DNA from: a virus
Lineage: Duplodnaviria > Caudoviricetes
Virus record (IMG/VR): IMGVR_UViG_3300045580_000309
Coordinates: 1 to 57,982 of that record
Reading direction: 5' to 3' (one strand)
Length of the DNA stretch: 57,982 nucleotides
Position numbers and translations under genes: made by a program
Shown here: positions 1 through 37,473 of the stretch, one piece after another
Position numbering within the stretch: the first letter of the stretch is position 1
How the letters are laid out: every line of letters begins with the position of its first letter
Notes under the pieces: generated by a model
What the model saw: only the letters and a program-made list of their open reading frames with translations
Database searches by the model: none
What the model was told of the DNA's origin: nothing

Positions 1-395
1 GGTTCGTCGTAGAGTGCTTCGGTTGACGATAGCGTACCGTTAGCAACATACTTCGAGCGCATGGCAAAGATGAGTCCTGTTGGACCACTCATTGGCTGCA
101 CCGAACCGATATCGTATGCAATGATGTTTGGCATTGCTCTACGAACGAGCGAGATCATCACAGGCGAGAAACCTGAGATGTTACCAAGCGAGGTAGCATC
201 TGAACCAGGTCCACCCTGTGCGTATGTTCCGCTCAGAGAGTTTACTGCAACTTCTCTTAGATCACGCTCGGTGTTCTCTAGAAGTACTGCGGTTACATTT
301 TTACGATAAGAGTCCTTGATTTCACCTGCTGATGGGTGGTCAAGTACTGGGGCCCACTTTTCCGTGAGCATGGATGCGTTTGCAATCTTTTCCAT
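1..395 (-). CDS. gp23: Major capsid protein, T4 gp23-like (5' part; runs off the window edge)
   Basis: Not in the ORF track. Manual translation from ATG at 395 (AAGGAG upstream): MEKIANASMLTEKWAPVLDH...YRKNVTAVLLEN...SPVMISLVRRAMPNIIAYDIGSVQPMSGPTGLIFAMRSKY, the characteristic gp23 N-terminal motifs; directly downstream of gp22. Confidence 0.97.
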   Translation of the reverse strand, partial: MEKIANASMLTEKWAPVLDHPSAGEIKDSYRKNVTAVLLENTERDLREVAVNSLSGTYAQGGPGSDATSLGNISGFSPVMISLVRRAMPNIIAYDIGSVQPMSGPTGLIFAMRSKYVANGTLSSTEALYDE

Positions 396-432
396 CTGAA
401 TTCTCCTTGTTATCCTCGGGTGAGGGAGTTAG

Positions 433-1407
433 TTAGTTACGAAACTTTGAAAGTGAGCGCGTGTATGCTTCCATCACAGGCGACAATGACGCTTGTGCTG
501 GCTTTGATTCTTCGATTAGTGTTTCTGCTTGAACTGGAGTCTTTAGGTAAGTCTCTTTCAGAACAGAGAGTTTGTTTTTGTATTCGTCAACCGAATCGAA
601 CTCTACACTCTCTGCAAGACCCTTTAGTTTTTCCACTTCTGATAGTGTAAGGCCTTCAATCGACTCGCTGAAAGCGATGCGTGCTTCCAGTTCACCAATC
701 TTCTTTGCCTTTTCCATGCTGTTCTTGATCTCTTCGTTAACCTGTGTGGTCAACTCTTCAATCTTGGTGTTTGCTGCTTCTAGCACATCCACCTTGTCTT
801 CAGGAATGGTAATGAAATTGTCGGTGAACAGATTGCGTAGACCTTCCATGAAGTTCTCTGCGATCTCTGCACGAAGACTGCGCTCTAGTGCAATCTTGTT
901 TTCCTTGTACCACTCTTCAACAACATACGACAGATACTCGTCAACCTTTTCTGCCAGATCGCTCTGTGTGGTTGCTACTGCTTCTGCGAGTGCTGCTTCA
1001 TAGTGACTCTTCATGTCTGCTTCGCGTTCTGCGATTACAGCACCAAAGATGGTTTCAGCCTTGGTCTTAAAGTCTTCGGATAGGTTCTGACCGTCAAAGA
1101 GAGGAGCAAGATGTTCCTTCATCTTCTTTGGTTCAGGCTTCTTGGCCTCTTCCATGTCGTCTTCCTCTTCGCAGTCATCACACCACGGAAGATCGTCGTC
1201 TTCGTTGCATGAGCATTCCTCTTCCTTCACAACTTTCTTGGCCTCTTCCATCTCTTCTTCGTCCTTCATTTTCTTGGCCTCTTCCATCTCTTCGTCCTTA
1301 CCCTTCTTGCCCTTCTTCTTGTCTTTCAGCCAAGGGGGAAGGCCTTCAGAAACAGGCGCCTTCTTCTCATCAAGTACTTCGTTGCTTTCGCTTTTAGGAT
1401 TGCTCAT
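433..1407 (-). CDS. gp22: Prohead core scaffolding protein, gp22-like
   Basis: LSEDFKTKAETIF, VDEYLSYVVEEW..EN..A.E..LR.EIAENFM.GL..LF motifs; lies between gp21 and gp23. Start moved from 1464 to ATG 1407 (MSNPK), which follows AAAGGAG and a late-promoter motif. Confidence 0.93.
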   Translation of the reverse strand: MSNPKSESNEVLDEKKAPVSEGLPPWLKDKKKGKKGKDEEMEEAKKMKDEEEMEEAKKVVKEEECSCNEDDDLPWCDDCEEEDDMEEAKKPEPKKMKEHLAPLFDGQNLSEDFKTKAETIFGAVIAEREADMKSHYEAALAEAVATTQSDLAEKVDEYLSYVVEEWYKENKIALERSLRAEIAENFMEGLRNLFTDNFITIPEDKVDVLEAANTKIEELTTQVNEEIKNSMEKAKKIGELEARIAFSESIEGLTLSEVEKLKGLAESVEFDSVDEYKNKLSVLKETYLKTPVQAETLIEESKPAQASLSPVMEAYTRSLSKFRN

Positions 1408-17287: not shown

Positions 17288-20200
17288 TTACATGGAACCC
17301 ACATCAGGAATCCAATTTAGCGGATCTAGTCTGATCTGCTCCAGTATTGCATCGAATGCAACCTGACCACCGAATGCAGTAACTTCGTTCCACTCTGCTG
17401 CGTATGTGCGCGTTTCTGCGTACTGCTTTGCTGCCTTTGCGTAGTGCAGAGCAAACTTAGACCAAGCAACCTTCAGGAATCTGTGAAGACTTGGAGAATA
17501 CCAACCAACACCTGCAAGTCTTCCAGTTGGACTAGACACTCCTCCTGCTGCGGGGTCTGCACCGTCCAAGAGATACGCCTTGATAAACATTCTGTGTCCG
17601 TTGCGAGCGTTATAGATTTGCTGTCTAGAAGCAACCAGCCACTTCTGACCTGTATTGGGATTGGTAGTGAATGAGTTTAGCCATCCAGTAATGGAAGCGT
17701 TGCTCATACCAAGTCTGTCTATTTCTGCCTTAACTTCGGTTGGATGGTTGTCTATCACATTCCACCATCTTGCTATGCGAGAACCTACTGGTACATCTGT
17801 GTCGTTTCTCTTTAGGCGAATTAGTACACCGTTTGCGTCTGTGTTTGTGCCTGTGATTTCAACTGGGAAGTGGTCAATATTCCATTGTGTCAGGTCTGGA
17901 TTAATGTCTGTTGTAGAGTTCCACCATGCGTTTCCACCACCGCTTGGTCCGGGCCATGCAGGACTGATGGTTTCCGATACCTGTGCAGTTGCCAACTTGG
18001 TGCTGTAGGTGGGCGACCACCAGAAAACAACACCATCTCCGTTGTTCTGTAGTACTGGATCAAGTTGAGTGCGGCAGAAGTCTTCAATACCCATGTATAC
18101 ATCCCAACATCTCCAATCGCCTTCGTAGCAAGAGCCAGGTGTGGTTCCAGTTACACCGCTTGGAGAAGTTGATTCTGTAGTGGTTCCACGGCAAGACGGA
18201 TTACACATGGTCGTGTAGTGCCAGCCAGTATATTCAGAACCCCATGAGATGATATGCCCTGCTCCGTAGAACATAGGTCCAACTGCGGGATACGAAGGAA
18301 CAGGATACAGTTTACTGAGTTTAACCTTGTCGTAGTTGTTTCTTTCCCATGCTGTCTGAATGGTACTTGCGCCGTTCCATGGCGTACCACCGCGTCCACC
18401 CCGTGACATGAATGGCGAGTAGTACGGTGCAGATGGATTTCCGTTGTTAACATTGCCAGGAACACCAGTTCCAAGTACTGTGCTGCTGTACAGATTGTAC
18501 AGACTTGGTTGCGTGTAATCTGCTTGACCTGTTGCAGTTCCAAATAGAGGCAACCAACGATTGTAGTAGTAGGTGATTAGTTGATCTCTTTGTGCATCCG
18601 TGAGGTTTTCGTATCCGAGTGAAATTGGATTGTTGTTTGCATCGCGGATCAGAGGTCTGCTCCAGTTATCAATATACGGCAGTCCGTACCATCCCACAGG
18701 GGTTCCTGAGAATCCATAATCACTTACTGGTGCGGTCTGGCAGAAGCGCACAAGTTGTTGTGAGTTTTCTACCACAGAGTTGTATGTAACTTCTATGGTT
18801 TGTCCTGTAGGACCAGTCAATCTGGCGTAGATATAGTTCACAGACTCAGAAAGCATTGGGTCTTGACGAAGAGCGCCAGGGCACGGACCAGCAATCTGCG
18901 GAGGACCAGAACATCCTCTGTACTCCCAATCGTAGAAGTTCGCCCACCCGTAGTTGAAGTAATTTGGAGCAAGTGCTTCAAAAGTCTTGGTTTCAAAGTC
19001 TAGATTTGTCAGGCTAAAGTCGGATACAGTTCTTGCGTCCTGCAAGTTGCTGCTTCCGTCTGGCATTCCCCATCCCCATCTTCCACGGAACGACTTGTTT
19101 GCGTTTGCTCCGCTATACGCTGCACCAGGCGCCCACACTCGTCCAGTTCCATCAGATGCCAACGGGCAGTTTGGATCGTTGTCAACCGCAGAACCGTTGG
19201 TATCAAACCTAGGACCAGTTACGAGCATATAGTATCTGCTCTTGTCGTCAGATACATTCGGCCATGTCTCTACCGAGTTTTCGTAGAAGTAGTGACACAA
19301 ACCACCCCATGTGTCGCCCAGTTCGGTTGCGAACTCGCTGTCAACCTCACTCGACGGTATCTCTGAGAAGAATACCTTGAACGATGTTGGGAACGCTCCG
19401 TTCTCAACAAACGAACGCTGCGGGAAATATCCTGGCACACAAGACGGTGCATCGGCATTCGCCTTGCAGGATTCTGCCAGAGTACACGCAGTTTCTGAGT
19501 CACAGACTACGGTGGTTCTACCAACTTCGCCCTGTTCGTCTAGTTGAAGATTGTTGTACAGAGGCAGTTCAGAATCAGCAACCCAACGCAGTTTCAGTTT
19601 GTGTAGACCGATTATGCCACCAGTTGTGTTGACTTGCACGGTAAACTTACGAGTATCAGAGTATCCAACCTCGGCTGTAGCCAAATCAATTCCACCTGAA
19701 GTCTCATCGACGGTAACAAAGATGTCTGACTTGTTTCTCTTGGTTCTCTTCATCTGTACGGTCTTGAATGCAGCAGGTGCCATATCGGTTCCATCCGTTA
19801 CCACAGCAATGGTTGCTGTACCTGTCTCGTAGAATCTCTGGCACTTTTCTAGAGTCTTGTTATAGTCTTCGTACACAAATGGAGATGCTTCAGCAGACTC
19901 TTCCAGTTGAACGCTTGTCAGGCTTACCACTCCAGTATACGAGAACGCTTCCCATGCTCCCAAGCACGGAGCAAGATTTGGTGGAACTACACGCGGAGAT
20001 GCCGTCACCGTCATTGTCGGTGTTATGCTTGGTGTTATGCTTGGTGTTGGTGTTGTTGTTTTTGTTACTGAAGGAGTTACAGTTACTGAAGGAGTTGCTG
20101 ATGGAGTTGCTGTTCCAGTTGCAGTTGCTGTGGTAACTGGACTGCTTGTAGCGGTTGGCGTTGCAGTTGCTGTAGGAGTTGCAGTAGCAGTTGCAGTTGG

Positions 20201-23200
20201 TGTAGCAGTCGCCGTAGCGGATGCGCTTGCCGTTGGTGTGGCAGTAGATGTAGCAGTCGCAGTTGGTGTAGCAGTTGCACTTGCTGTCGCAGTCGCCGTT
20301 GGTGTGGCGGTCGCCGTAGATGTTACTGAGGGAGTTACAGAGGCTGTCGCAGTCGCCGTTGGTGTGGCAGTTGCACTTGCTGTTGCAGTATTAGTGGGAT
20401 TTGCAGTAATGGTTGCTGTTTGAGTGGGTGTTGCTGTAGAAGTGCTTGTGGCAGTCGGTGTTGCAGTTGCCGTAGCAGAGGCAGTTGCTGTGGCAGAAGC
20501 AGTTGCAGATGCTGTTGCTGTTGGTGTAGTAGTGCTAGTTGCAGTTGCTGTTGCAGACGGTGTTGCTGTTACTGTCGCAGTTGCAGAAGCAGTAGCAGTT
20601 GCTGTGGGTGTAGCGGTTGCGGTGGCACTTGCGGTGGCAGTCGCTGTAGGTGTAGCAGTTTCTGTTGCTGTTGCTGTTGGAGTTGCTGTTGCGGTTGCTG
20701 TAACCGATACGGTTGCTGTTGGAGTTGCCGTAGCAGAAGCAGTTGCAGACGGTGTTGCCGTTACTGTCGCTGTTGCAGAAGCAGTAGCAGATGGTGTAGC
20801 AGTCTCAGTTGCAGTCGCTGTGGGTGTAGCAGTTTGAGTTGAACCCGCAGTTGGAGTGGCTGTTGCTGTTGGTGTTGCTGTTGCCGTAGCAGAAGCAGTT
20901 GCCGTGGCAGAGGCAGTTGCAGACGGTGTAGCAGTTTCAGTTGCAGTTGCAGACGGTGTTGCCGTTGCCGTTGCAGAAGCAGTTGCCGTTGCAGAAGCAG
21001 TTGCAGACGGTGTAGCAGTTTCAGTTGCAGTTGCTGTGGGTGTTGCTGTTGCTGTGGGTGTTGCTGTAGCCGTAGGTGTGGCTGTTGCTGTTGCAGAAGT
21101 GGTCGGTGTCGGCGTAGCGGTTCTTGTTGCAGTTTCTGTAGGCTTTGCAGTTGAAGTGGCAGTTGCCGTTGGAGTTGCTGTTTGAGTTGCTTTAGCAGAA
21201 GTAGTAGCAGTCGCTGTTGGTGTAGGAGTTGCAGTTACAGTTGCAGTTGCAGTTTCCGTAGGTGTTGCTGTGGGTGTTGCAGTCGTGGTTGCCGTTGCAG
21301 AAGCAGTTGCAGACGGTGTAGCAGTTTCAGTTGCAGTCGCCGTGGGTGTAGCGGTTTGAGTAGATACTGCCGTTGGTGTTGCAGTTGGAGTAGCAGTTGC
21401 CGAGGCCGTTGCTGTAGGTGTGGCTGTTGCTGTGGGTGTTGCAGTCGAAGTTGCTGTTGCAGACGGAGTTGCAGTCGCTGTTGCTGTTGCAGAAGCGGTT
21501 GCTGTGGCAGAGGCAGTTGCTGTTGCAGACGGAGTTGCAGTCGCTGTTGCTGTTGCAGAAGCGGTTGCTGTGGGTGTTGCTGTCGCTGTAGATGTAGCAG
21601 TCGCTGTTGGTGTAGCGGTTGATGTTGCTGTTGGAGAAGGAGTGGGTGTTGGTGTTGCTGTTGCAGTTGCTGTAAGCGATACTGTTGCCGTTGGTGTTGC
21701 TGTTGCGCTTGCCGTTGCAGTTTCTGTTGGAGTTGGTGTTACAGTAACACAGACTTCATTGAATCCATCGTACAAGCAAGGTGCCGGTGGAGGTGGACAC
21801 TCGTAGTCTGCACAAGTGCGGTCGAATCTTCCTTCACCGTAAGACTCATCGCCAGTCCATGTATAGCAATAGATAGTTGTTCCTGCGGTCAACGCCGCAC
21901 CTATTGCCAAACCAAGACATTCGCCTGCACTCTTTGCTTCTCCTACACACAGATAGGTTTGATTTTCTTGACCGCAATTTATACACACCAAGCACGGAGC
22001 GGTTGGAGAATTTTGCGATGGAGTGGGTGACGGGGTTGCCGTTGTGGTTGCTGTTGCGGTTGGTGTGGCAGTAGTAGTTGCTGTTGCTGTTGGAGTAGCA
22101 GTCGCAGTTGCCGTAGGTGTTGCTGTTGCGGTTGCTGTGGCAGAGGCAGTTGCCGTTGCAGAAGCAGTTGCCGTAGGTGTTGCTGTTGCGGTTGCTGTGG
22201 CAGAGGCAGTTGCTGTTGGTGTTGCAGTTGAAGTTGCAGTTGCTGTTGGTGTTGCAGTCGAAGTTGCAGTTGCCGTTGGAGTAGCGGTTGCCGAGGCCGT
22301 TGCTGTTGGTGTAGCGGTTCGTGTTGCTGTGGCAGAAGCGGTTGCTGTGGGTGTAGCGGTTGCAGTCGCAGTAGCAGAAGCAGTTGCCGTAGCAGTAGCA
22401 GAAGCAGTTGCAGACGGTGTTGCAGTCGAAGTTGCAGTCGCCGTGGGTGTAGCGGTTTGAGTAGATACTGCCGTTGGTGTTGCAGTTGGTGTTCCTGTTA
22501 CAGTAGCAGTCGCTGTGGGTGTAGCAGTAGCCGTCGCAGATGCTGTTGCTGTTGCAGATGCTGTTGCTGTGACAGAAACTGTCGGAGTTGGGGTTGCAGT
22601 AGATGTGGCAGTCGCTGTGGGTGTAGCGGTTTGAGTAGATACTGCTGTTGGAGTTGCCGTTGGAGTTGCAGTAGCAGACGCAGTTGCAGATGGTGTAGCG
22701 GTAGAAGTACTTGTAGCAGTCGGTGTTGCAGTTGCTGTGGCAGAGGCAGTTGCTGTTGCTGTGGCAGAGGCAGTTGCAGTTGCTGTGGCAGAGGCAGTTG
22801 CTGTTGCTGTTGCAGAGGCAGTTGCTGTTGCTGTTGCAGTCGCTGTTGGTGTTGCTGTAGCCGTAGGTGTTGCAGTTGCTGTTGCTGTGGCAGAATTAGT
22901 TGGAGACGGCGTAGCGGTTCTTGTTGCAGTTTCTGTAGGCTTTGCAGTTGAAGTGGCAGTTGCCGTTGGAGTTGCTGTTTGAGTTGCTTTAGCAGAAGTA
23001 GTAGCAGTCGCTGTTGGTGTAGGAGTTGCCGTAGATGTGGCAGTTGCCGTTGCAGAAGCAGTTGCCGTTGCAGAAGCAGTTGCAGTAGGTGTGGCAGTAT
23101 TCGTGGCAGTCGCCGTTGGTGTAGCAGTTGCTGTGGCAGAAGCAGTTGCAGACGGTGTAGCAGTAGCGGTAGCAGAGGCAGTCGCCGTAGCAGAGGCAGT

Positions 23201-26200
23201 TGCGGTAGCGGAGGTAGTTGGTGACGGTGTAGCGGTTCTTGTTGCAGTCGCTGATGGGGTTGCAGTTCCTGTTGCAGTTGCAGTTGGTGTTGCAGTCGAA
23301 GTTGCAGTCGCTGTGGGTGTAGCAGTTTGAGTAGATACTGCCGTTGGTGTTGCCGTTGGTGTTGCCGTAGAGGAGGCTGTTGCCGTGGGTGTAGCGGTTC
23401 GTGTTGCTGTGGCAGAGGCAGTTGCAGTTGCTGTGGCAGAAGCGGTAGCAGAAGCAGTTGCTGTTGCAGACGGTGTAGCAGTACCTGTAGCAGTTGCTGT
23501 CGGTGTTGCTGTTTTGGTTGCTGTTGCAGACGGTGTAGCAGTACCTGTAGCAGTTGCTGTCGGTGTTGCTGTTTTGGTTGCTGTGGCGGAAGCGGTTGCC
23601 GTCGGTGTTGCAGTTCCTGTTGCAGTTGCCGTTGGTGTAGCAGTCAGCGTAGGTGTGGCTGTAGCGGTAGCAGAAGCAGTTGCCGTTGGAGTTGCTGTTG
23701 CTGTGGCAGTTGCTGTTGCCACCGAACAAACTCTTCCTGCACACAATGAAGGAGTCTCGTCTGTTCCATTGAGCCTCGCCAATTCACACCAATCTGGCTG
23801 AGCATTTGAAGGGCAGCCAGGGCAGAGACAAATATCACAATCCCCTGTTCCGAACAGACCACAGCAATTCGGAGAGCCTGGACACAGTACTCTGAGAATA
23901 TCTCCACCAGTAAATGTTATCGTGATCGGTGGCCCATTGCACGCATCGGTGCTGCACGGATTGTTTGGTGTAATTATTCCACCATTTTGGGCGTCGTAGC
24001 CACAGCAGCCAGAACTTAGTACAATTTGCTGAACACAGCAATTACATCCTGCTCCCAAACACTCGCAGTTGTATGTGACCGACACATTGCAGGTTGCTAT
24101 CAATGATTGTTGGTCACTCGAATCACCTGATGTATTGTCCGTACTTATTCCAGCGTTTAATGCCCTGAACTGAAACTCTGGGCAGTCGGCGTTGCTGCGT
24201 TCCATATGGGTCCAGAAATAGACCCCCAAGTAATCATCGCTATTGTTACCGATTACTTTGCCATCAATGTCAGGGACATCTAAGGTTATTTCGTACTTTT
24301 TCCAGTAGTTCTCCAACTCCACAGGAACCAACGGAGAGTAAACTGGATCACTAGTACCAGAACCAACATTATAGTCTAGACCGTCACACCCCGATATACC
24401 GCTTGTATCGGTGGCTTCAAGTTCAATCCCGTAGTTCTCTGAACACAGACCTACGGTGTATACTGGCCGACAAGTTGCCGATTCTTCTTCTCCCTGATAG
24501 AATCCAACGCATACACTATCCACATAACTTTCGTCCATTGGAAGCGTACCAACACCACATCCTGTACATGGGAATGGGGTAGGAGTCACAGATGGTTGTG
24601 GGGTTGGGCATGGAGTTCTAGACGGACTTGGAGAAGGAACAATCCCACCACTACTTGTTGGAGTCGGAGAATTTGTAGGAGTCGGTGTAAGTGATGCTGT
24701 TACTGTAGCAGTTGCTGTCGGTGTTGCTGTTGCAGTTGTGGTTGCTGTTGCAGTAGCCGTCGCGGTTGGGGTAGCAGTAGCAGAAGCAGTTGCTGTTGGT
24801 GTCGCAGTAGAAGTTGCTGTGAGAGAAACTGTTGCCGTTGGTGTTGCAGTTGCAGTTGCAGAAGCAGTCGCGGTTGGTGTTTCAGCAGCAGTTGGTGTCG
24901 GTGTTGAGGTTGCTGTTGCAGAAGCAGTCGCTGAAGGTGTAGCGGTTTCTGTTGCGGTAAGTGTAGGTGTTGCCGTTGCTGTTGCCGTTGCCGAAGGTGT
25001 AGCGGTTTCGGTGGATGTAGGTGTAGGAGTTGCAGTTGCTGTAGCAGTAGCAGAAGCAGTTGCTGTGGGTGTGGCAGTCGAAGTTGCAGTCGCCGTGGGT
25101 GTGGCAGTTCCTGTTGCAGTCGCTGATGGAGTTGCCGTAGCAGAAGCAGTTGCCGTAGGTGTGGCAGTTGCAGAAGCAGTTGCAGATGGAGTCGCCGTTG
25201 CTGTTTCTGTTGCAGTCGCCGTAGGAACAGGTGTACTTGTTGCCGTAGGTGTAGCAGTAGCAGAAGCAGTCGCAGACGGTGTAGCAGTTGCTGTTGCTGT
25301 GGCGGTTGGACATGGCGCTCCAGAGCAAGTCACAAACTCAGCGATAAGTGTAGGAGTAAGACCACCTCCGTTGCAGGCTAGGCATAGGCAGCATCCTGCG
25401 GGATCGGTCGCTACTCCACCAGTTGAACACAACTGAGTTGGATTACCAAAACAAGTTGCTGCCGTTCCACCACAACCCTTGGCTTGAGCCTCTGCAAATG
25501 GAACTATAACTGTTCCGCGATCACAGGCATTAACATTCTCAGGTTCAAGTCCTGTTCCAATCACATAAATTGGAGCAGTATTGCCTGGATTAGTGCAGTC
25601 TACGCATCCTTCCCATCGCGCCCACAGTATAGTTTTCTCACTACATCTTGCACTAGCACCGCAAAGGCACTCGTATGCAATGACCAAATTACATCCTGGC
25701 GCCGCCGCTGCTCGGAGAGAGACAGTAGCGTTTGCAGCATCGGCATCAATGACTGATCCTGTTATGGGTTCGCGCTTTGAAAAGTTTGTGCCAAAGTCTT
25801 GCTTTAGGCCCACATAGATCAGATTGTTGTCTTCTGAACCATGAGAACCTTTTGCCCAGAACGAAAGCGTCGCTTTCTTGCCAGATAGAGTGTTTACGCC
25901 TGGAATTTTCTGATGCAGATTAAAGTAGGTACTGGTATCGGGTGTAACCCCGTCTGCGTGACCCTCAAACTCCACATAGTGCTTGCTGCCGTTGTTACCT
26001 ACTACCGTAGAACTGCGAGGATTAAACTCTGTTTGTCGTACACCACCGTAAACCGTTGCTCGTGTATCGTATGAGGTTTCCCATACCCAACGATCAGCGG
26101 TGTGTCGTGTGCAGCATCCTAAAAACTCTTTGCCTCTTTGCCAAACTGCAAAGTTTCCGTTGATGATGTGATTCTTTACCTTGCGTTCGTAAGAAGCATC

Positions 26201-27082: not shown

Positions 27083-27094
27083 GTATGGTTGCTC

Positions 27095-30000
27095 TTATAC
27101 CGCGTCCCATTCCAATTGACGGTTCAGATACTGTAGTTCTTCTGGCCTGTAAATATCGCAATCACAGTCATAGGTAAATGCCAAGTATGCTGAGTTTTCG
27201 TCCACGGTGTCTATGTTCACAGTAAATCCCTTTGCTGTAATGGATGTTGTGTCGATATCTATGCCACTAAATCCTGTATTTCCAGTTCGGAATGATGAGA
27301 TAATTGCCCGTGGTTGCTTGCAGATCTTTTCGCGCTTGAAAGCAGTTTCGTAGACAAATGACCCGCCGCGATCTCCCAAAAACTCTCCGCGACCCACACA
27401 TGAGTTTGTCTCGTAGTACGCTTGGCATTGCTCTACCAGTTCTATACGATCTGGCTTAACGAAACCAGTAAACTCGCTACCTGTCTGTAACTGAAACTGA
27501 GCAAGGTGCAGCATATCGGTATTGCTGAACGAGAACGGGAACACAGACACGCACGGTTCGCACATGGAGTTTTCTGTACACTCTACTGTTCCAAAGTCTT
27601 CTCCAAGACGATCACGGGGAGGAATTTCTGCTTGACTGTACGCACGGCAGTATCCGTTGCTGAGATGTGTCCACAACTGCAATGCCAGATAGTCTGTTCC
27701 GCTGTTTCCAATGTATCTGTTGTTAACGCTAGGTACTCTGAACACAACTTCATACTGTTGCCATTCGGGAGTTAGTTGTATAGCAACAAACTCAGAGCAT
27801 TGGTCTTCAGTAACTCCACATTGGGTAGTTTCAAACTGACTAAAATACTCTATGGCACCGTATGAAATGAACTGACCACCCGCTGCCGCACAGTCGTGAA
27901 CTGTTGAATTCTCTGTACGGGTATGCGAGACATAGAAAGCACCACTTTCTCCTACAGTTGTTGAACCGATGGTTACTGTACAGCAAATACCCAAAGTGTT
28001 TGTTGGGTCGTAGTTTTGAGGAACGCTCATACCGTTGCAGGCTTCTGTTACTGTTCCAACTCTAAACGAAACTTCCTCGCATCTACAGGCTGGACTAGCA
28101 GACAAGTCAGAGAGAATGTGGTTGTATATTGCAGCAATAACATCTGAATTAAGAGTAGAAACTGCTCCAGTAGAGTACTCCTCGAACATAGAGAAGTGGG
28201 ACGCAGAAAGAGGAACTGCTACTCTAGTTGTGCTTGATGTGCTTCCAGGCGCAACGGCATAGTGTCCAGTACTGGTCTGGGTTGCTTCGCATGGATCAAT
28301 TGGTTCAGAACTATAGATTTCAGAATCAGCGACTGCTATGGACTTGATTATGCCAGTACAGTTTGTGCAATACGGTGACGGTACGCAGTCTACGGTCACG
28401 ATTACTGAAACGCTCTGATTTGTTTCTGAGTTTACAGTATCTGTTCCTGCCACAACAATATCAGCAGCAACTGCTCGGAATGCCTCTGCTTTAGTGTTTG
28501 CGGTGGTTTGCGTGTTTTTCAAAAACACATCAGGAGACAGAACTTCTAGACCGCTTTCGTCTGCAAGAGTTGCAGCAACTGGATATTTGCCTGGAGGAGC
28601 AGACACAACAGGAAGACCAATTGCAGGAGTGTCATCAATGTAAGTGATACTTTTGCCTAGTACCTCTGCAACCTGTTTGGTATCTGGCGCATTTATGAAA
28701 TCGCTGACTGCACCAACAGAACCCTTTGCAGATGAGTCTGCGCTGAATGTTTCGCTTGACGCTGTTCCGCTGACTCCTTCGTATCCGTGGTTCCACCCAA
28801 CATACGGTCTTGGTACATCAGGAACACCTACGAAAAGACTGCCAGATATAGCAGGATACGACAACTCATCACTAATCTTTGAGTTTATAGCAGCAATGCC
28901 TATGGGTGCTTGATTCTCTTCACCAACATACCAGGCAACTTCTGACGAACCCACCGCTGCTGATCGTAAAAGATTCGGAGTAGACTCAGGAACATCGTAT
29001 CCAAAATGCTGCTTCAGATTCAGATAAACCGTACTGGTTCTTCCCAATCCTGAGCGTGCCCAAAATGATAGACATACCGTTTCGCCAGACAATGACTTAA
29101 CATCACCTATGCGATTTTCAAGAACGCAATACTCTAGTGAGGTGTCTGCTCCAGGACCGCTGATATACGATTGGTATTCCATGTAATGCGATGGAAACTG
29201 CTTCAGCAATGAATCTGGCAGAGATGCATCAATCTGAGCAAACGATTTGCGCTTGCATACGCCAACATACGCAGAAGGAGAATCTTCTCCTGTACCAGTT
29301 GCTCCGAATGGGTCTGGACAGTATCCAACTTTTCTAAACCATCTGTCTGCTGTATAGCGATTCAAGTCTGCAAGTTGATCTGATCCAGTTAGTTGTTGTG
29401 GAGCAAAATCAGTTCCTCTTTGCCATACATCGAATGATCCATTAACTGCCCAGTTTCGGATTGCTCCACCTGCACCATTGCAGGTTTCTATGTTCACATA
29501 TCGTTCTACTGCTTTGTATCGGATGTAGAAGTTTGCATGGTATGCTGCTTGTCTGTTCTTGTCCGCAGATACGCTTGCAAATCCAGTTCCTGCTCCAACA
29601 TCTGCACCTTCTCCAGGCAGCAACTCAACATCTGCATCGCCTCCTGTAGGAGAGATTGGATATCCAAATCCTGCGGAAGACCCCAACAGAATATTTCTCT
29701 GTGTGGAGAAATCGGGAACTTTGAATGTGCTTGTGCCTCCAGTTCCTATACCGTAAGAGTATCCAATCACTCTAAACAGATCAGGATATTCAGAAGCAGA
29801 ATACGAGGAACCGTCACACAGCAGCCAGCCTTCCAAGTCAGTTGGTTGAGGCAATCCACCTGGCACTATTTCTATAGTGCCTACAGGAATGATGTTTTGT
29901 ACAAATGCAACGCATCCTTCCGTATCCTCGACATATCCTCTGTAATTCACTACTAGAGCGTCGATCTCGCCCGAAGCATTAGTACCGAGAGTTACCAGTA

Positions 30001-30385
30001 TTGGTTTTCTTACCTTTGGTTCGTCTAGGTCTAGTTCTGGCGGAGTTTCAGTCAGAACGCCTGGAGTATCGCTGATAAAGTAAACTGTGTTTTCTGCAAC
30101 AGTTCCAACAGGACCAGTAACCGCAGTTGCGATTGGTAGAGATATCGTGCCTCTATACACAACATCGAATCTGTAAGCATCTTTTACATCTACCACACCA
30201 ACTGCTTCAGAAGAGCCAGTTAGATTCAGATACAGCCAATCCGAAAGTTTCCACTCGGATTCAGTACCGTCAAAGTACACTACCTGACCTGTAGTAAATC
30301 CGTGCCCGCGACGACGATAGTTGTCTCTAGAACGAATAGTATCAGGAGCAAATCCTTTGGATAACTGAAATGCGCTCTTATCCAT
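27095..30385 (-). CDS. Tail-collar adhesin paralogue B (~1096 aa)
   Basis: Collar motif IPVGTI...GWLLCDGSSYSASEYPDLFRVIG...FKVPDF; NGSFDVWQRG...YTADRW...LSFWAR...CQAYYE. Start moved from 30427 to 30385 (MDKSAF): TAATG overlap, upstream GGAGG, and the MxxSA start shared with paralogues. Confidence 0.8.
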   Translation of the reverse strand: MDKSAFQLSKGFAPDTIRSRDNYRRRGHGFTTGQVVYFDGTESEWKLSDWLYLNLTGSSEAVGVVDVKDAYRFDVVYRGTISLPIATAVTGPVGTVAENTVYFISDTPGVLTETPPELDLDEPKVRKPILVTLGTNASGEIDALVVNYRGYVEDTEGCVAFVQNIIPVGTIEIVPGGLPQPTDLEGWLLCDGSSYSASEYPDLFRVIGYSYGIGTGGTSTFKVPDFSTQRNILLGSSAGFGYPISPTGGDADVELLPGEGADVGAGTGFASVSADKNRQAAYHANFYIRYKAVERYVNIETCNGAGGAIRNWAVNGSFDVWQRGTDFAPQQLTGSDQLADLNRYTADRWFRKVGYCPDPFGATGTGEDSPSAYVGVCKRKSFAQIDASLPDSLLKQFPSHYMEYQSYISGPGADTSLEYCVLENRIGDVKSLSGETVCLSFWARSGLGRTSTVYLNLKQHFGYDVPESTPNLLRSAAVGSSEVAWYVGEENQAPIGIAAINSKISDELSYPAISGSLFVGVPDVPRPYVGWNHGYEGVSGTASSETFSADSSAKGSVGAVSDFINAPDTKQVAEVLGKSITYIDDTPAIGLPVVSAPPGKYPVAATLADESGLEVLSPDVFLKNTQTTANTKAEAFRAVAADIVVAGTDTVNSETNQSVSVIVTVDCVPSPYCTNCTGIIKSIAVADSEIYSSEPIDPCEATQTSTGHYAVAPGSTSSTTRVAVPLSASHFSMFEEYSTGAVSTLNSDVIAAIYNHILSDLSASPACRCEEVSFRVGTVTEACNGMSVPQNYDPTNTLGICCTVTIGSTTVGESGAFYVSHTRTENSTVHDCAAAGGQFISYGAIEYFSQFETTQCGVTEDQCSEFVAIQLTPEWQQYEVVFRVPSVNNRYIGNSGTDYLALQLWTHLSNGYCRAYSQAEIPPRDRLGEDFGTVECTENSMCEPCVSVFPFSFSNTDMLHLAQFQLQTGSEFTGFVKPDRIELVEQCQAYYETNSCVGRGEFLGDRGGSFVYETAFKREKICKQPRAIISSFRTGNTGFSGIDIDTTSITAKGFTVNIDTVDENSAYLAFTYDCDCDIYRPEELQYLNRQLEWDAV

Positions 30386-33300
30386 TACGGTACTTCCTCC
30401 CAAGCGCATACCCAACTGGTTCCGCAATACGGATCATTTGGACAATCTGTTTCATACAGATCGCAGTCCATCTCGTATTCGATGTACGCAGCGCAAACGC
30501 TCTGTTCTACCGTGGTTGGAGTCACTTCCAAATTTAACACCGCGCTTTCCTGATTGAAACAGTCTACTGTAAGTGTATCTAGGGTGCATCCTGTTACTCC
30601 GTCAGTATCGTAGTAACCTTGAATCTTCACGCACGGTTCTCTGAGAGTACGCTTTGGAACCATGTATGTAAGAGAATCGTAGAAATTTGTCGGAGATGAT
30701 GTGGTATTTGTACTACCACCCATAGCAAAGTATCCGTCTTTTTCAAAGAATCGCTGACACTTCTTTAACTCTTCCAAGTAGTCGGTTTCCTGAAACGGTA
30801 CTGAAGTTTTGCCACGGATCAGTTGCACTCCTGTAAGATGAACAACACCTTCGTAGTTAAAGTCTGCGTCAAACAGTACAGGCAAGCAGCAGTTGGTTAC
30901 ACACTCAAATGGCTCTCTTGGAGTCGGGGACGGAGTTGGTGTAACTGGACTAGAAGTTGGTGTTGGTGTAACTGGACTAGAAGTTGGTGTTGGTTGTGGA
31001 GTTCTACTACTAGTTACAGATGGAACAGGCGTTGTAGATTCACTTGGACTAGGACTTGGTGGTGTAGATTCTGGCGGTGGAGTTTCTGTTGCTGTTGGAG
31101 TTGGTGTTTCTCCTCCACCACCTAAACCACCCCATTCTCCATGAGTGCAGGCGCCAGTTACTGGATCGCGTGTCTGACAGCACGCGCAAAGTGCATCAAT
31201 AACTTCTGCATCTGTTGGATTTCCAGGCATTGCACCTTGACATCCACAACTTCCAAGTTTAATACAGTCTGGATCATTTCCATTTTGTGCTGCACAGGTT
31301 AGATTTGATGGTGCGGGATCGTATTGTTGCCCTCCTAACGGGGCAGGATAGCAACCGATTGGAGGACTGTTGAGATTGCAGCAACTATTTCCAGATGCAG
31401 GAGGTGTCGATGAATTTGCTTCACCAAAGCATAGATTTCCGCACCGATTTGTGTCTAGTTGAGCAACAGCGTTTCCTGCGCCTGGATCGGTTTCGCAACT
31501 ACCCACATGATTTGTGTCCTTTTCCCATACTATCCATTTTAGTCCGCTACAGCAAGAAATATTACTGGCGCAAGCGCCAGTTGCTCCGCATGGAGAACAT
31601 CCTGCACTAGCACAGCAAGTTGGTGCTTGAACTATGCAATACCTGACTACTGTTCCTCCGCCACCTCCGCCACCTCCTCCAGTTCCAGGTCCTCCTGGAC
31701 CCAAAGGCAGGATATCTGATTCTGGCGGAGGAGTAGCAATCACATCCCATACTTCAGGATTTGGAGTACCTGTACACGCTCCTGCAAAGTACATGGTCCA
31801 AAACTGAACACCCAAGAAACTGTTTGCGCCAATGTATCCGTCTGCTGGCTTTGATTCCTGTACTGGAGGAATGTCCAGTTCAATTTCATATTTGCGCCAG
31901 TTGGCACTAGAGTCTAATCCTATCTGCACAGGAGCAGAGTACGCATCATCCAAGATGCCTCTGTTTCCTGCAAAGTGTTGACGAAGTGTTAGGTAGATTG
32001 ATCCAGTTACAGTTCCTCTTGCCCAAAAACTCAGAGTAACCGTTTCTCCGCTGAGAGTTCTTACATCTTCAATTCTGTTTTCCAGATAGTGATAGGTTTC
32101 TCTATCTTCTATCAATCCTGTGGACGGATCAGTTACTTCGTAAGTCACATCACCAACGACATTTTCTGCACTCATCAAGGTTCCTTGAAACTGTGCGTAA
32201 GATGTAATGTCGTCTTGCAGATCAATGGCAAGATTGTCTTGACCTGTTGATTGACCAGGCGCTAGAGGAACAGGAAACGAGCCAGGATTATAGCGTCCGT
32301 ACTTGACACCCTTTTTCAACAGATGGTATGAGCCTAATGTGGGAGGCTCAATAGGAGCAGACACGCTGAAATCTTGAAACCACCTGTCTGCTGTGTATTG
32401 TGGTTGTACTGATGCCGATTGGATGGTTCTAGAGAATTCTTTTCCTCTCTGCCACACCAAAAACGCACCGTTTACAACCACATTGTCGTTTAGACCAACA
32501 GGAACAACTGGAGAGCAACATTCGTTTATGAAACTACCGCAATCAACTGCCTTGGTCTTTATGGCAAACACAACCTTAGTTGCGTCTGCACGGACATCTA
32601 CGGTTGCGCTGAAGTCTGTACCGCTGGCAACATCAGAACCAGTATTCAGTTCTGCTGTATTTGATCCGCTGTAGTCACCCAACTCATACTGTACCTGTGG
32701 ATTTGAGTCCCAAACTTCGATGGTTCCTGCGCCCTTTACTGTTCTGTTTCTCAGGTTAGGAACAAAGAACAGCGAGTCCACGCCTGGTAGAAACGGCGCT
32801 CTTACCTTTACAGAGTACTCAACGCCTTCTGTATAACTGGTAACGCCTGGAATCGGATTAGAGATATCGTGAATGACTCGCAGAGTGTTTTCGTCTACAA
32901 TCGCGTCAATGATTACTGCTCGTTCTTGACGAGAAGTGCTAGACTCCAACTTAATGTTGAGCGGTTCGCCTATGATTGCAACGCTAACATCAATGCCTTC
33001 ATCCGAAAAGTCGAGAAGAAAGTAACCATCGTTTGCTCTGCCGTCTCCTGAAGGTGCATCGGTATCAACTGAAAACTTTGCAGGCACACGAACGCTACCG
33101 CCAATGGCATTACCCAACTGAGAGTACTGTGCAGTTGTGCATAGTCTTCCGTCACAGACAATCCAAGACTCGGGAACGCTCTCTTGCATGAAAGCACCGA
33201 TAGCACCAACCTTCTGCACATCCTGTATACGAATAAACTCGTCTGGCAAACTTTCCATTGTGCTACCGATGTAGTTAACCACTACTGCACGGGTGCTGTC

Positions 33301-33834
33301 CAAGCCAATCAACATTGGCTTTACCACGGTCATTTGCTGCTTGCCTCCAAACTCTAGAGGACTTTTAGCAATGAGTTTGCCTTCTTCGCCTGGAAACGGA
33401 CTCAGGTAATACACACCACCTGGCGTGTATGTCTGTGGTACTGAGTCGGTTCCCGTGAGAAACGAATTCTGATCGTAGTCTAGATCAGTTGTATCGGGGA
33501 TAGTGATTTCTCCACGAAACACCACGCTGAAGAAATGCCTAGGATCGTTGCATTCTGTTTCTGTTTGGGTTCTGTGATCGAAAGCATACGATGGAATTGC
33601 TCTGCGCTGATAGTCAGCGGATGCCAGGGTGTCATCGCTGCCTCTGTAGCCAGTATGACTGATTACACCAATCGCTTCTGCATTAATGGTATCGCTTGCA
33701 GATGCCAAGACCCATTCTGTACCATTCCAACGCACAACATCTCCAAACTGGAATGTGTGATCCCGTTGGTAAATCTTGGTGCGTCGGTATGCTCTACCGT
33801 CCCAGTATGCTCTATGAAACGCGCTTACACCCAT
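30385..33834 (-). CDS. Tail-collar adhesin paralogue A (1149 aa)
   Basis: Collar motif VGAIGAF...PESWIVCDG...YSQL..AIG...FFVPNLR; NGAFLVWQRG...YTADRW...TLSFWARG...VQL...CQRFFE; Gly run, Cys-rich insert and PT linker. Confidence 0.8.
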   Translation of the reverse strand: MGVSAFHRAYWDGRAYRRTKIYQRDHTFQFGDVVRWNGTEWVLASASDTINAEAIGVISHTGYRGSDDTLASADYQRRAIPSYAFDHRTQTETECNDPRHFFSVVFRGEITIPDTTDLDYDQNSFLTGTDSVPQTYTPGGVYYLSPFPGEEGKLIAKSPLEFGGKQQMTVVKPMLIGLDSTRAVVVNYIGSTMESLPDEFIRIQDVQKVGAIGAFMQESVPESWIVCDGRLCTTAQYSQLGNAIGGSVRVPAKFSVDTDAPSGDGRANDGYFLLDFSDEGIDVSVAIIGEPLNIKLESSTSRQERAVIIDAIVDENTLRVIHDISNPIPGVTSYTEGVEYSVKVRAPFLPGVDSLFFVPNLRNRTVKGAGTIEVWDSNPQVQYELGDYSGSNTAELNTGSDVASGTDFSATVDVRADATKVVFAIKTKAVDCGSFINECCSPVVPVGLNDNVVVNGAFLVWQRGKEFSRTIQSASVQPQYTADRWFQDFSVSAPIEPPTLGSYHLLKKGVKYGRYNPGSFPVPLAPGQSTGQDNLAIDLQDDITSYAQFQGTLMSAENVVGDVTYEVTDPSTGLIEDRETYHYLENRIEDVRTLSGETVTLSFWARGTVTGSIYLTLRQHFAGNRGILDDAYSAPVQIGLDSSANWRKYEIELDIPPVQESKPADGYIGANSFLGVQFWTMYFAGACTGTPNPEVWDVIATPPPESDILPLGPGGPGTGGGGGGGGGTVVRYCIVQAPTCCASAGCSPCGATGACASNISCCSGLKWIVWEKDTNHVGSCETDPGAGNAVAQLDTNRCGNLCFGEANSSTPPASGNSCCNLNSPPIGCYPAPLGGQQYDPAPSNLTCAAQNGNDPDCIKLGSCGCQGAMPGNPTDAEVIDALCACCQTRDPVTGACTHGEWGGLGGGGETPTPTATETPPPESTPPSPSPSESTTPVPSVTSSRTPQPTPTSSPVTPTPTSSPVTPTPSPTPREPFECVTNCCLPVLFDADFNYEGVVHLTGVQLIRGKTSVPFQETDYLEELKKCQRFFEKDGYFAMGGSTNTTSSPTNFYDSLTYMVPKRTLREPCVKIQGYYDTDGVTGCTLDTLTVDCFNQESAVLNLEVTPTTVEQSVCAAYIEYEMDCDLYETDCPNDPYCGTSWVCAWEEVP

Positions 33835-36856: not shown

Positions 36857-36894
36857 CGGGTATTCCTATGCTATGCGGCTATGAATTAGGATTC

Positions 36895-37473
36895 TCAAAG
36901 ATTCGATGGTGAAGGTGTTACTGTTGGAGTTGGTGTCTTTGTCGCCGTAGGTGTTGGAGTCGGAGTCGCAGCAGCAGACTGAGAAACTTCAAATATGCGT
37001 GTTGGTGTAGGTGTAACCGAGCGAGTTACTGAAGGAGTTACTGTCTTTGTAGGTGTTGGAGTTACTGTTCTAGTAGGTGTTGGTGTTGGTGAGCAGATTG
37101 GATAGCATCCAACCAATCTTGCAACAGTTGCTTCTAGTTCTGCTACTCTTGCCGTGAGATTTTCTATGGTGTCTACAGATAGTCTACTTGATGTCTTTGC
37201 TGCTCGTTTCGCTGCAATGGCAGCGACTGTTGCAGTATCTGGCACACTCTGTAATCCAGTACCAGTATCCAATCTTACAAAACCGCTCTCTTCGGCAACT
37301 GCTAGTGTTGCTTGAGTGGCATTTGATGCCGATGCAATGTGATCGCTTACTGTTACTACTGAACCAGTTTCATCTGATACAGCAACTACCACGGAAACAG
37401 TAGCGGTAGACTCCACGCCAAGAGTGGTTGTGGTGGTTTGTTGGGTTAGTTTTGGGTTTGTCGATGCTGCCAT
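36895..37473 (-). CDS. Hypothetical virion protein (192 aa) with short coiled coil and Thr-Pro tail
   Basis: IENLTARVAELEATVARL heptads, then CYPIC and (TP)n repeats. Confidence 0.7.
   Translation of the reverse strand: MAASTNPKLTQQTTTTTLGVESTATVSVVVAVSDETGSVVTVSDHIASASNATQATLAVAEESGFVRLDTGTGLQSVPDTATVAAIAAKRAAKTSSRLSVDTIENLTARVAELEATVARLVGCYPICSPTPTPTRTVTPTPTKTVTPSVTRSVTPTPTRIFEVSQSAAATPTPTPTATKTPTPTVTPSPSNL

What the first reader, a model, noticed from the sequence alone, without database searches (positions are those of the whole stretch)
19820..33834. Three paralogous adhesins use one scaffold with two variable insertion loops (antibody-like loop display)
Seen: all three proteins share N-domain, tail collar, then NG.F.VWQRG...ADRW...LSFWA...Y..L.Q.F [site 1] W..YE....P...IG....L....WT [site 2] ...QL......F......CQ.(F/Y)(F/Y)E. 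Site 1 is nearly empty in the 1149-aa protein, holds ~400 aa ending in Cys-rich sequence in paralogue B, and holds Cys knob + ~240-aa Thr stalk + Cys segment in the giant. Site 2 holds ~50 aa (B), ~320 aa of Gly run + Cys-rich + PT linker (A) and ~1,400 aa (giant). Known: the uninterrupted NG.F..WQRG...CQRY module is a CBM-like jelly-roll common in phage tail proteins. Inference: a diversifying display system in which a fixed scaffold presents exchangeable disulfide- or metal-stapled knobs, comparable to knob-and-stalk ultralong antibody CDRs. This is the best candidate for an undescribed system in the window.
Basis: partly seen in the sequence, partly recalled or inferred. Interest (0 to 1): 0.85.

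Follow-up and report, generated by a model that had tools for sequence, protein, structure and literature searches.

The report
Swappable cysteine knobs nested in phage tail fibres
Three related tail-fibre proteins of an uncultured freshwater T4-like phage carry cysteine-rich knob domains on threonine-rich tethers inside loops of one sugar-binding-type fold, and related phages have swapped these knobs between sites and genes, probably to change which host surface they bind.

Summary
Three adjacent minus-strand genes encode paralogues: A (30385..33834), B (27095..30385) and a 3264-aa giant G (17288..27082). All share an N-domain, a tail-collar domain and a tip module that is split by inserts of very different size at the same two loops. 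That module is uninterrupted in most relatives seen (1970 hits in all; 86 of 93 anchor-bearing top hits). AlphaFold models of A and B place the separated segments in one CBM4-like jelly-roll (Z 13.4 and 13.6 to 4bj0_A).

The inserts are knobs with 11.6-13.2% Cys, followed by Thr/Pro/Ala linkers. No Pfam or PHROG family matches them.

Exchange is real. A 99%-identical phage (L009) has a 568-nt knob block replaced by 610 unrelated nt, and both alleles occur in independent freshwater metagenomes. One knob family sits at site 2 of A and at a post-collar site of B. Another sits at site 2 of A and at site 1 of G.

No reverse transcriptase or template copy was found. I read this as recombinational mosaicism of receptor-binding proteins, not an active diversifier. 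The knob fold, the stapling chemistry and the binding are untested. It is a new variant of a known kind.

The parts
30385..33834 (-). Paralogue A, 1149 aa (P0003): N-domain, split collar, CBM-like tip with site-2 insert, C-terminal beta domain
32776..33099 (-). A residues 246-353: 108-aa Cys-free insert inside the collar domain, conserved in A orthologues (46-78% identity)
   Evidence: Pfam Collar matches A 210-245 to profile 1-36 only. The F.VPN motif resumes at 356. BLAST shows no counterpart in B or G.
30838..31785 (-). A site-2 insert (residues 684-999): spacer with a Gly9 run, a Cys-rich knob (716-904, 22 Cys, 11.6%), and a PT linker (905-975)
   Evidence: pLDDT about 30
31123..31690 (-). 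The 568-nt knob block. In the 99%-identical phage L009 and in two metagenome runs it is replaced by 610 unrelated nt.
27095..30385 (-). Paralogue B (1096 aa from the ATG at 30385; listed as 1110 aa from the TTG at 30427, P0002)
   Evidence: P0019 aligns from B residue 15
27764..28999 (-). B site-1 insert (P0002 residues 477-888, 412 aa; 9 of its 12 Cys lie in the last 188 aa). It is conserved in B orthologues and includes a confidently modelled beta/alpha sub-domain (about residues 671-777).
27506..27658 (-). B site-2 mini-insert (residues 924-974, 4 Cys)
17288..27082 (-). Giant paralogue G, 3264 aa (P0001)
24323..25789 (-). G site-1 insert (residues 432-920): K-beta knob 455-592 (16 Cys), Thr/Ala/Pro linker 593-824 (0 Cys), Cys segment 825-900 (7 Cys)
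19967..24199 (-). G site-2 insert (residues 962-2372): knob 962-1120 (21 Cys), linker 1121-1693 (573 aa), mini-knob 1694-1778 (10 Cys), linker 1779-2365 (587 aa). The DNA is degenerate tandem repeats of period 6/12/18/30 and longer.
19553..19966 (-). G residues 2373-2510: last jelly-roll strand, the CQRFYE motif and the C-terminal beta domain shared with A and B
17291..19552 (-). G residues 2511-3264: extra C-terminal region unique to the giant. No family or relative found.

Best explanation
The window is a fragment of an uncultured freshwater T4-like myovirus. A, B and G are three paralogous tail-fibre (receptor-binding) proteins. They share an N-terminal anchoring domain, a tail-collar domain and a distal tip. 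The tip consists of a CBM4-like beta-jelly-roll plus a small C-terminal beta domain.

Shown:
- The jelly-roll tolerates nested domains in two inter-strand loops. Two further points take inserts: one inside the collar (A) and one after it (B in relatives).
- The guests are units of a Cys-framework knob followed by a Thr/Pro/Ala/Ser linker.
- Knob units have been exchanged by recombination between phages, between paralogues and between sites.
- Linkers evolve by repeat expansion and replacement.

Inferred:
- The knobs are autonomous binding modules that set or widen host-surface specificity. They would be held in shape by their conserved cysteines, through disulfides formed after lysis or through bound metal.
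- The linkers give the chain the slack it needs to return to the scaffold. In G they let a small knob reach far from the fibre.
- Three paralogues with different knob sets give one virion several specificities.
For: Context:
- Portal, sheath, terminase and baseplate genes flank the region.
- The record is a 32%-complete virus fragment.
- The portal is 47-53% identical to those of cyanomyoviruses and Methylophilales phage Melnitz.
- All 20 runs that hold the stretch are freshwater metagenomes, from 11 studies.

Scaffold:
- PHROG tail-fibre families 4492 and 25042 match.
- phmmer finds 1970 relatives at E<=1e-3.
- 86 of 93 anchor-bearing top hits have an uninterrupted module of 175-249 aa.
- AF2 scaffold pLDDT is 85-97 on both sides of the inserts.
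- The best solved match for both models is CBM4-2 4bj0_A. For A: Z 13.4, rmsd 2.7, 159 of 166 residues, model range 11..569. For B: Z 13.6, rmsd 2.8, 161 of 166, range 25..684. Phage fibres 5w6h, 9b45, 7xyc, 9euf and 5e7t also match.
- BFVD matches are to tail fibres, including ones annotated 'CenC-like' carbohydrate-binding.

Knobs:
- Knobs hold 11.6-13.2% Cys, against 0.84% in 24 other ORFs and 0% in the linkers.
- In each knob family 11 Cys are invariant, among 20 (K-alpha) and 23 (K-beta) invariant columns.

Exchange:
- Window and L009 are 98.9-99.2% identical in nucleotides on both sides of window 31123-31690. That block is replaced by 610 nt with no similarity.
- 259 of 478 mismatches and 150 of 156 gap columns over 11,678 aligned columns fall in 31038-31787.
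- Contigs of runs X13 and X16, from two studies, join 31122 to 31691 with 610 other letters. A contig of X7 spans the block with the window allele and 0 differences.
- A of L012 against P0004: scaffold 98-99% identical, knob 63%.
- A_win's knob groups with that of P0156 (100/100 support), although the scaffold is 99% identical to L009 and 63% to P0156.

Same knob family at different sites:
- A_L009 site 2 against B_L017 post-collar site: 43% over 203 aa, E 1e-36.
- A_L012 site 2 against G_L013 site 1: 42% over 157 aa, E 1e-31.
Against: - No binding, fold or metal/disulfide evidence exists for any knob. AF2 gave pLDDT about 30, and Pfam, PHROGs and the ESM Atlas gave nothing.
- The AF2 models were built with alignments of uninterrupted relatives. 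Their jelly-roll is therefore not independent of the sequence evidence.
- VIA reports only the first and last aligned residue.
- Only two haplotypes of the A knob were seen in the four runs laid, and not within one sample, so population hypervariability is not shown.
- B's large site-1 insert is conserved rather than exchanged.
- Virions assemble in a reducing cytoplasm, which argues against disulfides forming during assembly (general knowledge).
- Host, virion location and copy number are unknown.
- Knob relatives were found only in this clade: 3 hits with the K-alpha profile and 1 with the K-beta profile. The comparative base is therefore about 10 genomes.
Confidence: 0.65

Rival explanations
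1. The inserts are passive decoration. Mucin-like Thr-rich bristles and Cys-rich spacers would stabilise, shield or lengthen the fibre, or stick weakly to exopolysaccharide. Specific receptor recognition would lie in the CBM-like domain and the C-terminal beta domain. Knob turnover would reflect weak constraint.
For: - The uninterrupted module alone is the whole tip in most relatives.
- Linkers make up about 1400 residues of G and change repeat type freely between near-identical phages.
- The scaffold just before site 2 is the best-conserved part of A (72-80% identity).
Against: - A conserved framework of 11 Cys with variable loops between them points to a folded, selected domain, not filler.
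- Knob units are retained after transfer to other sites and paralogues.
- The replacement in A is precise and in frame, with both alleles persisting in nature.
Confidence: 0.22
2. An active, programmed diversification system acts on the knobs. This could be a diversity-generating retroelement or a silent-cassette gene-conversion system, making the arrangement mechanistically antibody-like.
For: - Divergence is extremely localised inside 99%-identical flanks.
- Gly-rich boundaries lie on both sides of the swapped block.
- Only 32% of the genome is in hand, so an element elsewhere is not excluded.
Against: - No RVT_1 match in the window.
- No second copy or template of either knob allele in the window or in L009.
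- The two alleles share no detectable nucleotide similarity, so they do not differ by point substitutions.
- The same two alleles recur with identical breakpoints in different studies, which means stable haplotypes.
Confidence: 0.04
3. The giant ORF and the inserts are artefacts of assembling low-complexity repeats, or they are decaying genes.
For: - Contigs of all four runs break at 30964/30965 in A's PT linker, and a linker-length variant exists.
- G's linkers are degenerate tandem repeats.
Against: - The frames stay open over 3264 aa here. They also stay open over at least 1469, at least 1333 and at least 656 aa in independent assemblies with different repeat types.
- Knobs on both sides of the linkers are conserved in order.
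- A and B orthologues from at least 8 independent contigs or clusters keep the architecture.
Confidence: 0.03

Closest known systems
gp38 adhesins of T2/T6-type phages, with hypervariable segments between glycine-rich motifs (PMC3157838, abstract read)
   Same: - A conserved structural core carries several independent, easily interchanged specificity segments on a T4-type tail-fibre tip.
- Here too the swapped block in A is bounded by Gly-rich stretches.
   Different: - No gp38 family appears in the Pfam results for these proteins.
- The core here is a CBM4-like jelly-roll, not a glycine-rich core.
- The variable units are whole Cys-rich domains of 85-190 aa plus linkers, not short loops.
- The units also move between paralogues and between sites.
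[quoted passage not shown]
   Same: Binding modules are nested in loops of a beta-sandwich of a phage adhesion device, as an optional and lineage-variable decoration.
   Different: - Roles are reversed. Here the CBM-like fold is the host scaffold and the guests are unannotated Cys-rich knobs.
- The proteins are myovirus fibres, not Dit or Tal.
- The guests carry long Thr-rich tethers.
Uninterrupted CBM-like (CenC/CBM4-type) tail-fibre tips of many phages, e.g. BFVD models of Synechococcus phage S-B28, S-H34 and S-N03 fibres, and PDB 5w6h, 9b45, 7xyc
   Same: Same module by sequence profile and fold.
   Different: Those are continuous, with 175-249 aa from the NGxF motif to the CQRY motif. Of the top 150 hits, only 6 were seen to be interrupted, and all 6 are A or B orthologues of this clade.
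Ultralong bovine CDR H3 knob-and-stalk antibodies (recalled knowledge; no call)
   Same: A Cys-framework mini-domain with variable loops is displayed away from a beta-sandwich scaffold.
   Different: - The stalk there is a rigid two-stranded ribbon and diversity is somatic.
- Here the tethers are low-complexity and mostly one-sided.
- Diversity is germ-line recombination between phages.
- There is no homology.
DGR variable proteins such as Mtd-type C-type-lectin receptor binders (recalled knowledge)
   Same: A phage receptor-binding protein with localised variability on a static scaffold.
   Different: - No reverse transcriptase or template repeat was found.
- Variation is whole-block replacement, not adenine-directed substitution.

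Membership tests
Phage tail collar domain (Pfam PF07484) | Match above Pfam's gathering score | tested here: met
   G 36.7, B 56.9 and A 25.9 bits against a cut-off of 24. In A only profile positions 1-36 match before a 108-aa insert.
PHROG tail-fibre families 4492 / 25042 | Significant profile match | tested here: met
   phrog_4492: A 3.2e-25, B 1.1e-20. phrog_25042: A 5.4e-12, B 1.9e-08, G 2.2e-05.
CBM4/CBM_4_9-type carbohydrate-binding module | Pfam PF02018 match above the gathering score | tested here: not met
   Not listed for A, B or G. 4 of 7 short relatives score 21.4-24.3 bits against a cut-off of 25.9.
CBM4/CBM_4_9-type carbohydrate-binding module | Beta-jelly-roll fold superposable on solved CBM4 | tested here: met
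   4bj0_A: Z 13.4 with 159 of 166 residues (A model) and Z 13.6 with 161 of 166 (B model). 1gui_A: Z 11.6 and 11.2. The models were made with alignments of uninterrupted relatives.
CBM4/CBM_4_9-type carbohydrate-binding module | Binds a carbohydrate ligand | not testable with these tools
   No assay is available. A shared fold does not show function.
Diversity-generating retroelement target | Reverse transcriptase nearby | tested here: inconclusive
   No PF00078 match in the 57,982-base record. The record is only 32% complete.
Diversity-generating retroelement target | A template repeat nearly identical to the variable region, with differences at adenines | tested here: not met
   tblastn of both knob alleles finds only the knob itself in the window and in L009. 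The alleles share no nucleotide similarity.
gp38-type adhesin (GRM/HVS design) | Sequence homology to gp38 | tested here: not met
   No such family appears among the Pfam hits of A, B, G or their inserts.
gp38-type adhesin (GRM/HVS design) | Conserved core with interchangeable variable segments | tested here: met
   This is a functional resemblance only.
Knob-and-stalk (ultralong CDR-like) display | Knob held at the end of a paired ascending and descending stalk | tested here: inconclusive
   In A and in G site 1 the long linker lies on one side of the knob only. In G site 2 a mini-knob lies between linkers of 573 and 587 aa. No structure is available.
Knob-and-stalk (ultralong CDR-like) display | Disulfide-stapled knob | not testable with these tools
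   Eleven invariant Cys per family. Whether they form disulfides or bind metal is unknown.

The most novel reading that the evidence does not exclude
This phage clade has a natural loop-display platform. A CBM-like jelly-roll and its collar accept portable units of Cys-framework knob plus linker at up to four positions. The knobs are autonomous binders of a fold family not yet described. They are shuffled among three paralogous fibres within and between genomes. In the giant fibre, a mini-knob is cast out on paired tethers of about 580 residues each, giving long-range capture of the host.
Probability: 0.3. Interest if true: 0.8.

Novelty: new variant of a known kind. Interest (0 to 1): 0.6.

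Why it matters
Receptor-binding proteins set phage host range.

Known designs vary short loops (gp38), whole C-terminal tips, or add CBMs to baseplate proteins. Here whole Cys-rich domains with their own tethers are nested inside the tip fold itself. They have demonstrably moved between sites, between paralogues and between phages.

If the knobs bind receptors, this gives three things:
- a new family of small binding domains;
- a natural scaffold with mapped permissive loops for engineering phage specificity;
- a tractable marker (knob alleles on near-identical backbones) for following phage-host arms races in lakes.

The 3264-aa fibre, with about 1400 residues of Thr/Ala linker, is also an extreme case of low-complexity sequence kept in frame.

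Tried and rejected
The natural pieces A 440-1149 and B 300-1110 were folded instead.
- **Cultured-phage searches.** Megablast of the A+B DNA and tblastn of whole A found no match. The scaffold piece found only 7 distant fibre hits. G's C-terminal 775 aa and B's site-1 insert found no match.
- **Family scans.** Pfam and PHROGs on 8 insert or extension pieces gave nothing meaningful.
- **PDB sequence searches.** A short relative and G's C-terminus gave only chance-level hits.
- **ESM Atlas.** G's C-terminus scored at most 0.84, with a hyaluronidase-like cluster at 0.83, which is a lead only. The A knob gave no usable hit.
- **Large protein database.** The single-sequence A knob search found 0 hits. 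The K-alpha profile found 3 and the K-beta profile 1, all in this clade. The tool warns that finding few is weak evidence.
- **IMG/VR scans with the knob profiles** found no new contigs.
- **Nested inserts elsewhere in the family.** 5 of 7 long NG-to-CQ spacings, and 7 of the 19 long hits examined, turned out to be tandem double modules rather than nested inserts. Only 19 of the 150 listed hits, plus the 74 short ones, were examined by HMM. The other 1820 hits were not seen.
- **K-alpha tree.** Apart from the A_win+P0156 pair it is unresolved, so no donor or direction can be named.
- **Full-length giants.** Fetching them from two metagenome contigs failed because the records are not held.
- **Literature.** Four full-text searches found no paper describing this arrangement. 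Supplements were not consulted.
- **Loop positions.** Whether the two loops face the CBM4 ligand cleft could not be checked.
Full report
**What the window is.** All long ORFs lie on the minus strand. PHROG scans identify portal, sheath, large terminase, baseplate wedge and hub proteins around the region. The record is a 57,982-base IMG/VR virus fragment estimated at 32% complete. Its portal is 47-53% identical to those of cyanomyoviruses (S-SRM01, S-B64) and Methylophilales phage Melnitz. All 20 public runs that hold the A gene are freshwater metagenomes, from 11 studies. The phage is therefore an uncultured freshwater T4-like myovirus with an unknown host.

**The observation.** Three adjacent genes are involved:
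- A: 30385..33834, 1149 aa.
- B: 1110 aa from the TTG at 30427. The better start is the ATG at 30385, which overlaps A's stop as TAATG behind GGGAGG.
- G: 17288..27082, 3264 aa.

All three have a tail-collar domain above Pfam's cut-off and match tail-fibre PHROGs. BLASTP between them gives three colinear shared blocks separated by unshared stretches. Motif anchors give 29, 418 and 501 aa at site 1 for A, B and G, and 324, 59 and 1434 aa at site 2. A profile built from 74 uninterrupted short relatives matches each protein in colinear pieces. E-values run from 1e-09 to 1e-30, and the breaks fall at the same profile positions: about 122-131 for site 1 and about 166-177 for site 2. No other ORF in the window matches the profile.

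**The scaffold is one common domain.**
- phmmer with A 440-700 against 1.84 billion representatives finds 1970 proteins at E<=1e-3.
- Of the 150 listed, 93 carry both the NGxF and CQRY anchors by regex. In 86 of those 93 the anchors are 175-249 aa apart, so the module is continuous.
- Short relatives score just below the CBM_4_9 cut-off.
- AlphaFold2 models of A 440-1149 and B 300-1110 were made with alignments of 107 sequences. Scaffold pLDDT is 85-97 on both sides of the inserts.
- In an all-against-48,161-chain structural search, both models match CBM4-2 (4bj0_A) best. A: Z 13.4, rmsd 2.7 Å, 159 of 166 residues, model range 11..569. B: Z 13.6, rmsd 2.8 Å, 161 of 166, range 25..684. Other CBMs and phage fibres or tailspikes follow (5w6h, 9b45, 7xyc, 9euf, 5e7t).
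- BFVD matches are phage tail fibres, some annotated CenC-like carbohydrate-binding.
- In both models the sites are loops between consecutive strands. Site 1 lies after the strand ending ...LxQxF and before WxxYE. Site 2 lies after ...FWT and before the last strand ...VQL.

Two caveats apply. The models were guided by uninterrupted relatives, and the aligner reports only the ends of the aligned range. The in-silico deletion test itself could not be run.

**The guests.**
- G's composition map shows three elements at site 1: a knob at 455-592, a Thr/Ala/Pro linker at 593-824 and a Cys segment at 825-900.
- At site 2 it shows four: a knob at 962-1120, a 573-aa linker, a mini-knob at 1694-1778 and a 587-aa linker.
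- A's site 2 holds a Gly9 run, a 189-aa knob and a 71-aa PT linker.
- Knobs hold 11.6-13.2% Cys, against 0.84% in 24 other ORFs of the window and 0% in the linkers.
- The linker DNA is degenerate tandem repeats with a few perfect recent duplications.
- None of eight insert or extension pieces matches Pfam or PHROGs.
- The A knob was not predicted (pLDDT about 30).

**Variation concentrates in the inserts.** Related contigs keep the gene order: large protein, then a roughly 1000-aa protein, then A, B and G.
- A against L009 is about 100% identical over residues 1-710 and 921-1149, but 22-37% over 721-880.
- At the DNA level the two phages are 98.9-99.2% identical on both sides of window 31123-31690. 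In L009 that block is replaced by 610 nt with no detectable similarity.
- 259 of 478 mismatches and 150 of 156 gap columns over 11,678 aligned columns fall in 31038-31787. A second patch of 39 mismatches in 300 nt lies at B's post-collar site.
- A second near-identical pair, L012 and P0004, has a 98-99% identical scaffold and a 63% identical knob.
- Contigs from runs X13 and X16, from different studies, join 31122 to 31691 with 610 other letters. A contig from X7 spans the block with the window allele and no differences. Both alleles are therefore natural and stable haplotypes.
- Between window and L009, G's knobs are 92% and 81% identical. Its site-1 Cys segment is 99% identical. The site-1 linker has changed repeat type entirely.

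**Knobs move between sites and paralogues.** An all-against-all BLASTP of 30 insert segments defines two families.
- K-alpha is at site 2 of A in the window, L009, L014, L010 and P0156. It is also at the post-collar site of B in L012, L017 and P0155. Example: A_L009 against B_L017, 43% over 203 aa, E 1e-36.
- K-beta is at site 2 of A in L012, P0004, L017 and L018, and at site 1 of G in all three lineages. Example: A_L012 against G_L013, 42% over 157 aa, E 1e-31.

Each family keeps 11 invariant cysteines with variable loops between them. In a K-alpha tree the window's knob pairs with that of P0156 with 100/100 support, although the A scaffold is 99% identical to L009 and 63% to P0156. The rest of the tree is unresolved. 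Within L013 the linkers of A and G share 75% nucleotide identity over 556 nt. This suggests that linker types homogenise within a genome.

**Not everything varies.** B's 412-aa site-1 insert is present and alignable in all B orthologues seen: 35-48% identity among loci, and 47-97% over the whole protein for 5 database proteins. It contains a confidently modelled sub-domain.

**Rarity.**
- Six of the 150 listed phmmer hits are known to be interrupted, and all six are A or B orthologues. P0004 is known from its sequence. P0019, P0007, P0012, P0014 and P0092 were among the 19 long hits examined by HMM.
- 7 of those 19 long hits are tandem double modules.
- Profile searches with the knob families found only clade members: 3 hits and 1 hit.
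- IMG/VR scans added no new contigs.
- These tools warn that few hits is weak evidence.

**Mechanism.** No reverse transcriptase is present in the fragment. No second copy of either knob allele exists in the window or in L009. The alleles differ by whole-block replacement. I therefore read this as recombinational mosaicism of receptor-binding proteins, not as a programmed diversifier.

The closest described designs are two:
- gp38 adhesins, in which hypervariable segments lie between conserved glycine-rich motifs and are 'easily interchanged' (PMC3157838, abstract).
- 'Evolved' Dit proteins, with CBMs inserted in loops of a galectin domain (PMC7291167, passages).

Neither is homologous to these proteins. 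Four full-text searches found no description of Cys-rich knobs nested in a CBM-like fibre tip.

Three things remain inference: that the knobs bind receptors, that their cysteines are stapled by disulfide or metal, and that the linkers act as slack or as long-reach tethers.

**Verdict.** This is a new variant of a known kind, of moderate to high interest.

Noticed in passing
Pfam, PHROG, PDB-sequence and cultured-phage searches found nothing. The ESM Atlas scored at most 0.84, including a weak hyaluronidase-like lead at 0.83.
   Followed up: partly
window 30383..30387: A's stop codon and B's ATG overlap as TAATG, with GGGAGG a few bases upstream. This suggests translational coupling. The TTG start in the ORF list is probably not used.
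   Followed up: yes
window 37477..44370 (-): A 2297-aa protein matches phrog_358 (E reported as 0) and phrog_877. It is conserved upstream in all related loci and has no annotated function.
   Followed up: no
window 36888..36957 vs L009 6757..6947: A second break in the otherwise 99% identical alignment with L009: 70 nt here against 191 nt there, at the end of the 192-aa ORF 36895..37473.
   Followed up: no
window 29538..29837 (-), B residues about 200-280: A localised divergent patch between window and L009 (39 mismatches and 6 gap columns in 300 nt). It lies at the post-collar point where B of L012, L014, L017 and P0007 carry a knob+linker insert. Runs X13 and X16 show small deletions at 29653-29675.
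   Followed up: partly
window 30935..31110 (-), A's PT linker: A perfect 27-nt x 2.2 repeat. Contigs of all four runs break at 30964/30965. Run X16 has a shorter linker variant, with 30970-31087 replaced by 32 letters. Linker length is polymorphic.
   Followed up: partly
window 20000..24000: GC skew of +0.33 to +0.35 and GC of 0.53-0.54, against about 0.46 elsewhere. The cause is the Thr/Ala codon repeats of G's linkers on the minus strand.
   Followed up: yes
proteins P0006, P0009, P0016, P0018, P0020, P0032, P0039: Other phage proteins carry two complete copies of the CBM-like tip module in tandem. This is a different way of multiplying the same module.
   Followed up: partly
window 27764..28999 (-), B residues about 671-777: Inside B's site-1 insert, AF2 predicts a confident beta/alpha sub-domain (pLDDT 80-94). 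It was not searched on its own, so its fold is unassigned.
   Followed up: no
window 55459..56757 (-): A cytidyltransferase-like gene (phrog_3041, E 5e-54) lies next to the baseplate hub gene.
   Followed up: no
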